Shown piece by piece: positions 12,863-13,480 of a stretch of 64,000 bases of DNA. Each line of letters starts with the position of its first letter. Position 1 is the first letter of the stretch. The translations under genes and the position numbers were made by a program. This stretch comes from Escherichia phage KookSpook. The stretch lies in the sequence record PP925842.1, one strand, 5' to 3'. The notes beneath the pieces are model-generated. The model worked only from the letters and a program-made list of their open reading frames with translations, was not told where the DNA came from and searched no databases.

Positions 12863-12886
12863 TTTTCCTTAGCCCAATACTGATTA

Positions 12887-12910
12887 CCGAGTCAAAATGA
12901 CTCGGTTTTC
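12887..12910 (+). terminator. Rho-independent terminator
   Basis: CCGAGTC-AAAAT-GACTCGG followed by TTTT. Confidence 0.7.
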
Positions 12911-12953
12911 ACTGTGCTCAAAGACACTGATAGCACCATCTTTAAAATTTTTG

Positions 12954-12982
12954 TTGCACGATGCTCAAAATCTTGATATAAT
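12954..12982 (+). promoter_or_regulatory. Early promoter (TTGCAC-17-TGaTATAAT)
   Basis: Extended -10 at 12974-12982; drives a roughly 480-nt leader before the CDS at 13481. Confidence 0.6.
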
Positions 12983-13480
12983 ATTTATATTGAAGTGAGA
13001 GACATTAGTAAAAATTGATTTTGCTAATTTTTCTTGTTTACAATCCGCGATACGGAACAGTTAGGCTGCCCCATTAAGGGTTGTTTTAACTATTACTAGT
13101 GTTTATACTACATTAGTTAATTATCAATTAAGTGATCTGCATACCCTGAATTCGGAAAGGTAAATCCAAACCGTGCATATTTAGCTCGTTATATAGGCAG
13201 AGCTTTATATGGGGGTGCGAACGAAAAGAGCAGCGAATGGTGACACGTCCAGTAGCCACCTACCAATAGGATAGTGAGGGCAATCAGAATCGGCTTAGCG
13301 GCCAATGACCTAGGTTCTGGTCTGGATAAGAGTTAAGAGAGTGTAGCACTGAGGTATGATAACTTATTCATACTGCTTGATGATAATTAATGTTTTGTAT
13401 AGATGGTAGTAATAGTTGTTCTATTCTTTCTGAATAGTCCTAGAGAAAAATATCCGAATAACCAACATAGGAGTACTGTT

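What the first reader, a model, noticed from the sequence alone, without database searches (positions are those of the whole stretch)
12863..13480. Roughly 600 bp without a convincing ORF upstream of the origin-binding helicase gene
In an otherwise tightly packed genome, a terminator (12887-12910) and strong promoter (12954-12982) are followed by about 480 nt of transcribed sequence with only a 20-codon ORF before the helicase start. It could be a structured leader, a small RNA, or the replication origin recognised by the adjacent origin-binding protein.
Basis: inference. Interest (0 to 1): 0.45.

Follow-up and report, generated by a model that had tools for sequence, protein, structure and literature searches.

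The report
Large conserved structured RNA leader, T5-like phages
The 600-base gap in front of the T5-type D2 "origin-binding" helicase gene is not empty: it encodes a roughly 490-base, elaborately folded RNA leader kept by evolution across several genera of T5-like phages, matching no catalogued RNA family and of unknown function.

Summary
The window is a T5-like phage. Bases 12863-13480 correspond to the T5.107/T5.108 gap of phage T5 and form the largest ORF-free stretch in the 64 kb. A conserved terminator (12887-12909) and an extended -10 sigma-70 promoter (12954-12982) precede about 490 nt with no conserved ORF and no terminator before the helicase start (GTG 13481).

The transcript folds into:
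- a 5' hairpin;
- an almost invariant hairpin, H0 (13040-13084);
- a 330-nt multi-helix domain closed by a long-range stem (13088-13096 with 13409-13417);
- a last hairpin (13421-13437).

Five sequence types share this architecture, with only 43-50% identity in the core. They come from Tequintavirus/Epseptimavirus, Pectobacterium and Klebsiella phages. In a hand alignment, 52 of 70 core pairs show changes on both sides. Unambiguous within-type alignments show 5 such pairs each (0/500 shuffles reach the observed pairing). G·U pairs assign the RNA to the + strand. Rfam has no match.

The most likely role is a cis-acting leader of the D2 mRNA, read by a protein at two invariant hairpins. That role is inferred, not shown. 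An origin or primer role remains possible but has no support here.

The parts
12887..12909 (+). Intrinsic terminator ending the upstream operon (SIR2 / HAD_SAK_2 / two DUF7415 genes)
   Evidence: Stem CCGAGTCA/TGACTCGG followed by TTTT. The homologue is annotated as a terminator in T5 and Stitch. The hairpin is kept with different stem sequences in DU_PP_V, My1 and the Klebsiella phage.
12940..12989 (+). Sigma-70 promoter: A/T tract, -35 TTGCAC 12954-12959, TG 12974-12975, -10 TATAAT 12977-12982, predicted start about 12987-12989
   Evidence: Sequence. The matching feature is annotated as a promoter in T5 and AKFV33. The -35 and -10 are conserved in all lineages. The start site is predicted, not mapped.
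12992..13039 (+). 5' hairpin H5' (GAGAGA.CAUUAGUAAAA / UUUUGCUAAU.UUUUCUU)
   Evidence: Predicted in every lineage with different stem sequences. It is 99% identical between the window, T5 and Lindwurm.
13040..13087 (+). Hairpin H0 with an AA bulge and an AC/CC internal loop, followed by UUUU. Together with P6 it holds most of the nucleotides invariant across all types.
   Evidence: Found by RNAalifold. Compensatory changes: CC/GG to GG/CC to AG/CU, GAU/AUU to CAU/AUG, GG/CC to AG/CU. Invariant positions 13050-13074. Unique in the window.
13088..13417 (+). 330-nt multi-helix domain. P1 13088-96/13409-17. P2 13132-4 and 13137-42 with 13341-9 (AU bulge). P3 13143-6/13213-6 with P3a and P3b. Weak P4. 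P5 13248-52/13322-6. P5a 13255-7/13279-81. P6 13285-9/13315-9. P7 13353-9/13368-74.
   Evidence: Covariation. Single-sequence folds of the different types give the same architecture. Exact coordinates.
13292..13303 (+). Invariant hairpin GGCU-UAGC-GGCC at the tip of P6
   Evidence: CU-UAGC-GG is identical in all five types and in the Providencia phage, always between complementary arms of different sequence.
13421..13437 (+). Last hairpin (CUAUUC-UUUCU-GAAUAG) between the domain and the ribosome-binding site
   Evidence: Kept as CUUUCC/GGAAAG (DU_PP_V) and CUAUC/GAUAG (Klebsiella phage). It is not followed by a U-run, so it is not a terminator.
13470..13483 (+). Shine-Dalgarno AGGAG (13470-13474) and GTG start (13481) of the D2-type helicase gene (13481-16270)
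   Evidence: T5 annotation. Alignment of the start regions. Pfam Herpes_ori_bp at residues 387-533. The ATG at 13403 listed by the ORF finder lies inside P1/Hlast and is not the conserved start.

Best explanation
The gap encodes the 5' leader of the D2 helicase mRNA. A strong early sigma-70 promoter fires just after the terminator of the preceding operon. The first ~490 nt of the transcript fold into four modules:
- a 5' hairpin;
- the near-invariant hairpin H0;
- a 330-nt multi-helix domain closed by a long-range stem, with two multi-way junctions and an invariant UAGC-tetraloop hairpin;
- a final hairpin.

An A/U-rich spacer then leads into the SD and the GTG start. This is a previously uncatalogued RNA family of T5-like phages.

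Most likely mechanism (inferred): the leader acts in cis to set the amount or timing of D2 synthesis. A protein would recognise the two invariant hairpins held in place by the scaffold. Candidates are D2 itself, another early phage protein or a host factor. The outcome would be altered translation initiation, transcript elongation or mRNA stability.

Shown: the terminator, the promoter, the absence of a conserved ORF, the RNA structure, the strand, and continuity with the D2 start.

Inferred: that the RNA is made in vivo from this promoter, that it is regulatory, and who binds it.
For: Identity and context:
- The window is T5-like, and the gap is the homologue of the T5.107/T5.108 gap.

Structure:
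- RNAalifold on 8 sequences of four types gave 59 pairs, 26 of them with compensatory changes.
- A hand alignment of 30 distinct sequences in five types covers 70 core pairs. They are 99.7% canonical and 52 carry changes on both sides. Column shuffles reach at most 83% paired, and slid partners give 34-44%.
- Within-type alignments are unambiguous and were not fitted to the structure. Type A: 99.9% paired, 5 pairs changed on both sides, 0/500 shuffles as good. Type B: 99.5%, 5 pairs, 0/500.
- RNAalifold on type A alone recovers H0, P1, P2, P3b, P5, P5a, P6, P7 and Hlast.
- Single-sequence folds of the other types give the same layout. The inner domain is a constant 194-203 nt.

Strand:
- 159 G·U cells make the - strand only 92.2% canonical.

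Not coding:
- No ORF is conserved across types.

Leader:
- No terminator lies between the fold and the SD.
- The element is always directly upstream of this gene, across Markadamsvirinae, Mccorquodalevirinae and Sugarlandvirus.

Selection:
- The first 100 nt are 99% identical between phages whose flanking genes are 68-86% identical.
- Invariant nucleotides cluster in H0 and in the UAGC hairpin.

Novelty:
- No Rfam match at E up to 1 in the window and up to 5 in ten relatives.
Against: - No transcript data were found for any T5-like phage.
- No conserved sequence able to sequester the SD exists. The best partner of the initiation region lies in a different element in each type, so simple SD masking is unlikely.
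- The RNA is far larger and more elaborate than known phage translational operators.
- The cross-type alignment was made by hand and fitted to the structure, so its counts lean towards the model.
- Covariance models seeded from types A and B did not detect the C, D and Klebsiella versions significantly.
- Folding-energy z-scores do not separate the leader from coding controls.
- Vibrio relatives also have a gap but show no motif and no excess stability.
Confidence: 0.5

Rival explanations
1. Replication-origin transcript. The structured RNA made from the strong promoter acts as a pre-primer or R-loop organiser, comparable in principle to ColE1 RNA II or the promoter-dependent origins of T7 and T4. 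The adjacent D2 helicase would be loaded there to start T5 DNA replication.
For: - The element keeps strict synteny with the presumed initiator helicase across genera.
- D2 is proposed, though not shown, to be a replication initiator (PMC3632103).
- No SD-masking design was found, so a purely translational role is not obvious.
- The strong promoter is followed by about 500 nt of conserved fold, as in RNA II.
- The T5 origin has never been mapped at sequence level. The T5 gap lies at about 48.5% of the genome, and my recollection of the 1976 electron-microscopy work is that an origin was seen near the middle. This could not be checked because the paper is not held.
Against: - No iterons or repeat arrays.
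- No GC-skew inflection at 13 kb.
- No antisense regulator promoter: none was found inside the gap, and the one candidate, just inside the D2 coding region, is not conserved.
- The RNA runs straight into a translated gene.
- A recombitron study reported a strand bias pointing to dominant unidirectional replication from one genome end (PMC10055335).
- The AEP-primase-like look of the D2 N-terminus (MDVDG, SSSAGxKxGxRxH) is only a recollection of motifs. There are no Pfam or PDB hits, and the AlphaFold model is unusable.
Confidence: 0.2
2. A stable non-coding RNA with its own function, merely co-transcribed with D2. Two forms are possible. One is a ~100-nt RNA (H5'+H0) released by termination or processing at the UUUU after H0. 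The other is the excised 330-nt domain. It might act on the host RNA polymerase as a put-like antiterminator, titrate a host factor, or counter a defence system.
For: - The first 100 nt are 99% identical where flanking genes are 68-86% identical. Such sequence-level constraint is typical of RNA that contacts a conserved partner.
- Two stem-loops lie directly downstream of an early promoter, followed by a U-tract in types A to D.
- The P1-enclosed domain behaves as a swappable cassette. It is 43% identical between types A and B while both flanks stay conserved.
- Its size and complexity resemble those of stand-alone large ncRNAs.
Against: - The U-tract is only four U and is missing in the Klebsiella lineage.
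- No terminator separates the domain from D2.
- The element was never found away from the D2 gene.
- There is no second copy in the genome.
- No transcript data are available.
Confidence: 0.2
3. The gap holds unannotated small protein genes, as some automated annotations assume: a 33-aa ORF at 12897-12998 and a 43-aa ORF on the - strand at 13128-13259.
For: PHANOTATE-style annotations of SmurfNell and SB13 call these CDSs. The ORFs exist in the window.
Against: - The 33-codon ORF lies across the terminator and the promoter.
- The - strand ORF is absent from types B, C, D and Klebsiella.
- No ORF is conserved in place or sequence across types.
- Substitutions preserve base pairing, not codons.
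Confidence: 0.02
4. A purely DNA-level element, such as a cruciform, protein-binding sites or an origin without an RNA role, or a neutral spacer.
For: - Long inverted repeats are present (13088-13108 with 13397-17417).
- The folding z-score is similar on both strands.
Against: - 159 G·U cells are tolerated on the + strand only, and these would be A·C mismatches on the - strand.
- Many short internal helices covary, which a DNA site would not require.
- A neutral spacer would not keep 99.7% pairing at 43% sequence identity.
Confidence: 0.04

Closest known systems
ColE1/pMB1 RNA II replication pre-primer
   Same: A strong promoter lies about 500 nt upstream of a replication function. The long transcript has a conserved fold that matters. 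It sits next to the replicon's initiation machinery.
   Different: No antisense RNA I-type promoter was found in the gap, and the one candidate just inside D2 is not conserved. No mapped origin or RNase H site is known. The T5-type RNA continues into a translated gene. There is no sequence or Rfam relationship.
Structured leaders of plasmid initiator genes (R1 repA/CopT, ColIb-P9 repZ) and phage translational operators (T4 genes 32 and 43, RegA sites)
   Same: An mRNA leader of a replication protein gene that is a target for post-transcriptional control, often autogenous.
   Different: Those elements are tens to about 150 nt long and act by occluding or exposing the SD, or through antisense RNA. 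Here the leader is about 490 nt with at least 14 helices, no conserved anti-SD and no conserved antisense promoter.
HK022 put antiterminator RNAs (resemblance recalled from established knowledge, not tested)
   Same: Two conserved stem-loops with internal loops lie directly downstream of an early phage promoter transcribed by host RNA polymerase. Sequence conservation is very high.
   Different: No sequence model was available to test homology. Downstream T5 genes have their own promoters, so a need for antitermination is not evident. The 330-nt domain has no put counterpart.
Large 'ornate' bacterial and phage ncRNAs (GOLLD, ROOL, HEARO, OLE)
   Same: Large, multi-junction and supported by covariation. 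Some are phage-borne. Function is unknown or was unknown at discovery.
   Different: No Rfam match to any of them. It is smaller: the domain is 330 nt and the leader about 490 nt. Its position is fixed as the 5' leader of one gene, and it is confined to T5-like phages in the scans made.
Bacterial RNase P RNA (CR-V-like string CAGAAUCGGCUUAGCGG)
   Same: A short string resembles the conserved ACAGAAnnCGGCUUA segment, as I recall it.
   Different: No RNase P model matches even at a permissive E-value. Only GCUUAGCGG is conserved across types, and there it forms a tetraloop hairpin rather than a P4 strand.

Membership tests
Any Rfam 15 family (4227 covariance models) | A score reaching the family threshold, or at least a low E-value, against the covariance model | tested here: not met
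   The window 12000-14500 at E up to 1 gave only a chance snoRNA hit (E 0.24, 21 bits against a gathering score of 44). Ten related loci at E up to 5 gave nothing in the leader.
tRNA / tmRNA | Cloverleaf or tmRNA detected by ARAGORN | tested here: not met
   0 genes in the whole window.
Conserved structured RNA (generic criterion) | Base pairs maintained through compensatory substitutions beyond what column composition and relatedness explain | tested here: met
   Ten pairs changed on both sides occur within two closely related types, and 52 of 70 across types. Slid-partner controls give 34-45% pairing.
Conserved structured RNA (generic criterion) | Strand assignable from G·U versus A·C asymmetry | tested here: met
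   + strand 99.7% canonical with 159 G·U cells. - strand 92.2%.
Cis-regulatory 5' leader / riboswitch-type element | Located between the promoter and the regulated ORF on the same strand, with no intervening terminator | tested here: met
   The position is conserved in all lineages.
Cis-regulatory 5' leader / riboswitch-type element | An expression platform: conserved alternative pairing that masks the SD or forms a terminator | tested here: not met
   No conserved anti-SD partner. H0+UUUU is terminator-like in types A to D but not in the Klebsiella type.
Cis-regulatory 5' leader / riboswitch-type element | Ligand or protein binding that changes expression | not testable with these tools
   Needs reporter fusions, in-line probing, or EMSA/pull-down.
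ColE1-type RNA II primer / transcription-activated origin | An antisense regulator RNA promoter within the 5' part of the primer | tested here: not met
   No - strand promoter-like site inside the gap. The candidate at 13588-13560 is not conserved.
ColE1-type RNA II primer / transcription-activated origin | An RNA-DNA transition or replication start at the 3' end of the structured transcript | not testable with these tools
   Needs nascent-strand or marker-frequency mapping. GC skew gives no signal.
Iteron-type origin bound by an initiator | An array of direct repeats next to an AT-rich unwinding element | tested here: not met
   Only short two-copy repeats at chance level. Tandem Repeats Finder was not run.
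Intrinsic terminator plus sigma-70 promoter pair | A GC-rich hairpin with a U-run, followed by -35/-10 hexamers at 17-nt spacing | tested here: met
   Sequence. T5, Stitch and AKFV33 annotations. Conserved across lineages. The simple scan misses both by its thresholds.
Protein-coding small ORFs | A reading frame conserved across relatives | tested here: not met

The most novel reading that the evidence does not exclude
The folded transcript is the long-sought primary replication origin element of T5-like phages. In this reading it is an RNA II-like pre-primer or R-loop organiser, made by host RNA polymerase. Its invariant hairpins would recruit the adjacent D2 helicase, and possibly a primase activity in its uncharacterised N-terminal domain, to start DNA synthesis.
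Probability: 0.15. Interest if true: 0.85.

Novelty: new variant of a known kind. Interest (0 to 1): 0.62.

Why it matters
T5 is a classical model phage, yet how its replication starts and how its early replication genes are controlled remain largely unknown. A roughly 490-nt RNA with more than a dozen covarying helices sits immediately upstream of the presumed initiator helicase and is conserved over several genera. It matches nothing in Rfam 15, and no description turned up in the literature searches made.

- It gives a concrete, mutable target for testing how D2 expression or replication initiation is controlled.
- It adds a phage example to the short list of large structured RNAs of unknown function.
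- It corrects genome annotations that either leave the region blank or fill it with spurious small ORFs.

Tried and rejected
- Rfam scans of the window and ten relatives found no family.
- ARAGORN found no tRNA or tmRNA.
- The RNase P-like string is not supported by any model. Only the tetraloop hairpin is conserved.
- Small ORFs are not conserved across types.
- The antisense promoter at 13588-13560 is not conserved.
- A second + strand promoter-like site (TTGATT-18-TACAAT, 13015-13044) is conserved only where the whole segment is identical. An optional 97-nt insertion in some phages interrupts it.
- The search for a conserved anti-SD gave inconsistent partners.
- GC skew follows gene orientation and has no inflection at 13 kb.
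- No iterons were found.
- Folding z-scores are not discriminating, because coding controls reach -5. They are not used as evidence.
- Covariance models of the P5/P5a/P6 junction were built. R1 (type B) finds type A at the right place only weakly (E about 0.06-1). R1 and R2 (types A and B) do not find the C, D or Klebsiella versions significantly.
- N-padded sequences meant to force my alignment through MAFFT did not come back ungapped. Cross-type counts were therefore computed in Python.
- The genome-contig scan for the H0 motif gave only chance hits, none with the second motif.
- The metagenome scan for both motifs gave 8 T5-like contigs and 3 chance hits.
- The viral-contig scan gave only the same T5-like genomes, one copy each.
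- D2 N-terminal domain: no Pfam, PHROG function or PDB relative. The protein database returned 2 near-identical fragments. The single-sequence AlphaFold model has pLDDT 40 and was not used.
- Literature: no T5-like transcriptome and no description of this RNA were found. The catalogue of over 10,000 viral structured-RNA candidates (PMC10690425) does not mention it in its text, and its tables are not held. The T5 'Rad' anti-retron factor is a protein encoded elsewhere.

Full report
WHAT THE WINDOW IS

The query region is 99% identical to a T5-like phage record and 85-96% identical to several hundred Epseptimavirus and Tequintavirus genomes. Bases 12863-13480 correspond to the gap between T5.107 and T5.108 of phage T5 (NC_005859, 58928-59544). 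The T5 record there annotates only a putative terminator and a promoter.

The downstream gene is annotated as 'replication origin binding protein'. Its only Pfam match is Herpes_ori_bp, over residues 387-533. Those coordinates match the domain positions reported for the T5 D2 bipolar SF2 helicase. That paper proposes, but does not show, that D2 is a replication initiator (PMC3632103).

CHECKING THE OBSERVATION

- Terminator: CCGAGTCA/TGACTCGG followed by TTTT, 12887-12909.
- Promoter: TTGCAC, 17 nt, TG-n-TATAAT, 12954-12982.
They recur in Pectobacterium, Klebsiella and other lineages with altered stem sequences but the same hexamers.
- From about 12989 to the SD (13470) and GTG (13481) is about 490 nt.
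- ORFs here are at most 43 codons. None is conserved in place or sequence across lineages.
- The 33-codon ORF that some pipelines annotate lies across the terminator and the promoter.
- With a crude ORF cover, this is the largest non-ORF stretch of the 64 kb.
- An unannotated or dubiously annotated 350-1300 nt stretch precedes this gene in every Demerecviridae lineage inspected.

WHAT IS THERE

Aligning T5, Stitch, Lindwurm and others showed an unusual pattern.

- The first ~100 transcribed nt are essentially identical.
- The following ~310 nt fall into sharply different versions that share short islands such as GGCTTAGCGGCC.

Five types were distinguished:

| Type | Members |
|---|---|
| A | the window, T5 |
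| B | Lindwurm and others |
| C | Pectobacterium DU_PP_V |
| D | Pectobacterium My1 |
| K | Klebsiella Sugarlandvirus |

A more divergent Providencia version also exists. Core identity between types is 43-53%.

Segment identities make the same point:

| Segment | Window vs T5 | Window vs Lindwurm |
|---|---|---|
| H5'+H0 (12988-13087) | 99% | 99% |
| Flanking genes | 68-86% | 68-84% |
| P1-enclosed domain (13097-13408) | 89% | 43% |

THE FOLD

RNAalifold on eight sequences of four types predicted 59 pairs, 26 of them with compensatory changes. I segmented one representative per type by hand into homologous helices and propagated the segmentation within types.

- Every one of 18 helix segments is maintained in all types with different sequences.
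- P2b reads CUGCAU/GUGUAG, CUGCGU/GCGCAG, CUGUGU/GCACAG, CUACAC/GUGUAG and CUAGAA/UUCUAG.
- P6 outer reads CAGAA/UUCUG, UAGAA/UUCUA, CAAAU/AUUUG, GGUGC/GCACU, AUACG/CGUAU and CCACA/UGUGG.
- Over 70 core pairs and 30 distinct sequences, 99.7% of cells are canonical and 52 pairs carry changes on both sides.
- Shuffling partners within columns gives at most 83% pairing. Sliding partners gives 34-44%.

That alignment was fitted to the model, so I repeated the count where alignment is unambiguous.

- Within type A (12 distinct sequences): 99.9% paired, 5 pairs changed on both sides, 0/500 shuffles as good.
- Within type B (11 sequences): 99.5% paired, 5 pairs, 0/500.
- RNAalifold on type A alone independently returns H0, P1 with a long extension, P2, P3b, P5, P5a, P6, P7 and Hlast.
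- Unconstrained single-sequence folds of types C and D show the same P3/P3a/P3b/P4/P5/P5a/P6 layout.
- The inner domain has a constant length of 194-203 nt.

Strand. 159 G·U cells make the + strand 99.7% canonical but the - strand only 92.2%. The functional molecule is therefore the RNA transcribed towards the helicase gene.

Nucleotides invariant across all types cluster in three places:

- H0 (13050-13074);
- the CU-UAGC-GG tetraloop hairpin (13294-13301);
- the base of P2.

WHAT IT IS NOT

- No Rfam family matches.
- It is not a tRNA or tmRNA.
- A string resembling RNase P CR-V is only the conserved tetraloop hairpin.
- There are no iterons.
- There is no GC-skew inflection.
- There is no conserved antisense promoter.
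- There is no conserved anti-SD pairing.
- Folding-energy z-scores (about -4) are matched by coding controls from the same phage (-1.3 to -5.0). I do not count them as evidence.

DISTRIBUTION

- Both signature motifs occur once per genome and only in T5-like phages: 30 IMG/VR contigs and 8 metagenome contigs, plus 3 chance hits lacking the helicase.
- A genome-collection scan for the H0 motif produced only chance matches without the second motif.
- Vibrio relatives have a gap but neither the motifs nor excess stability.
- An Aeromonas relative has UAGC-type hairpins far upstream, of uncertain relation.
- Covariance models of the P5/P5a/P6 junction seeded from types A and B were too narrow to detect the C, D and Klebsiella versions. 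Homology between types therefore rests on shared motifs, positions, lengths and architecture.

HOW IT MIGHT WORK

Shown:

- A new transcription unit begins after a terminator.
- Its first ~490 nt form a conserved multi-domain RNA.
- It continues without a terminator into the SD and start of D2.

The most economical reading is a cis-acting leader. No SD-masking platform is conserved, and the invariant residues sit in two hairpins displayed by a variable scaffold. I therefore favour recognition by a protein that tunes D2 synthesis. Candidates are D2 itself, another early protein or a host factor. This step is inferred.

Two alternatives are each about half as likely:

- A replication-origin or pre-primer RNA working with D2. 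Synteny with the initiator and the strong promoter favour it. No direct support exists, and the recombitron strand-bias data point elsewhere (PMC10055335).
- A stand-alone ncRNA. The extreme sequence conservation of the first 100 nt and the two stem-loops plus U-tract right after the promoter recall put-type antiterminators or small RNAs. The cassette-like exchange of the 330-nt domain also fits.

Sequence alone cannot separate these readings. The experiments that would are listed under next steps.

NOVELTY

I found no description of this RNA in Rfam 15 or in the searchable literature. A catalogue of more than 10,000 candidate viral structured RNAs might include it, but its tables were not available.

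It is a new RNA family of a known general kind: a structured leader or ncRNA. It is unusual for its size and complexity, and for its position in front of the presumed replication initiator of a classical model phage.

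Noticed in passing
L004 (Salmonella phage phA11) 1835-1945; also L024, L026, L041; absent from the window: An optional 97-nt insertion sits in the leader between the 5' hairpin and H0. It is flanked by an 8-nt direct repeat (TTTTTCTT) and carries its own hairpin (ATTTACGG/CCGTAAAT). It occurs in 51 phage records, once per genome, in both type A and type B backgrounds. It could be a small mobile or modular RNA element.
   Followed up: partly
L006 (AKFV33) 1016-1468; L008 (3sent1) 716-1168: A homing/HNH endonuclease gene is inserted between the terminator and the leader promoter in some Tequintavirus genomes. It never lies between the RNA and the helicase gene.
   Followed up: no
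window 13097-13408 compared with L007: The P1-enclosed domain looks like an exchangeable cassette. It is 43% identical between type A and type B phages, while the 100 nt before it are 99% identical and the 63 nt after it 81% identical. Type B is closer to the Pectobacterium-phage versions than to type A.
   Followed up: partly
window 12897-12998 (+) and 13128-13259 (-): Some deposited genomes (SmurfNell, SB13) annotate tiny CDSs here. One lies over the terminator and promoter, and the other is antisense to the structured domain. Neither is conserved across lineages. They are probably false gene calls.
   Followed up: yes
window 13403-13480: The mechanical ORF list extends the helicase ORF to an in-frame ATG at 13403 (955 aa). 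The conserved start is GTG 13481 behind AGGAG. The extension overlaps the P1 3' strand and the last hairpin.
   Followed up: yes
whole window (best match MG065692.1): The closest records (99% and 94.6%) are named 'Campylobacter phage C13/A148', although the sequence is a typical enterobacterial T5-like phage. The host label looks doubtful.
   Followed up: no
window 10379-12862: The operon ending at the terminator encodes a SIR2-family protein, a HAD domain of the 'Swiss Army Knife RNA repair' type (HAD_SAK_2) and two DUF7415 proteins. This is an NAD and RNA-repair flavoured gene set directly upstream of the RNA.
   Followed up: no
window 7066-7426, 39282-39659, 63085-63533, 6044-6303: These are other stretches without an ORF of at least 70 aa. 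They were not examined for RNA structure.
   Followed up: no
L011 (Klebsiella phage IME260) 2535-3092: A second unannotated ~560-bp gap, between a DNA helicase gene and the SSB gene, begins with a promoter similar to the one studied here. It may be another long leader in Sugarlandvirus.
   Followed up: no
window 14000-20500 (coding controls): Ordinary coding segments of this phage give dinucleotide-shuffle folding z-scores as low as -3.5 and -5.0. Folding energy alone is therefore a poor screen for RNA elements in this genome.
   Followed up: yes
D2 protein residues ~105-170 (window about 13790-13990): Across Demerecviridae the N-terminal domain keeps invariant D110, D112, S155, S157, G159, R165 and H167 (MDVDG ... 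SSSAGxKxGxRxH). From memory this resembles archaeo-eukaryotic primase motifs. No Pfam or PDB match was found, and the AlphaFold model was unusable.
   Followed up: partly
L036, positions about 894 and 1017: One IMG/VR T5-like genome carries the 5'-hairpin motif GAGAGACATTAGTAAAAATTGATTTTGCTAA twice, 123 nt apart. This suggests a local duplication in the leader.
   Followed up: no
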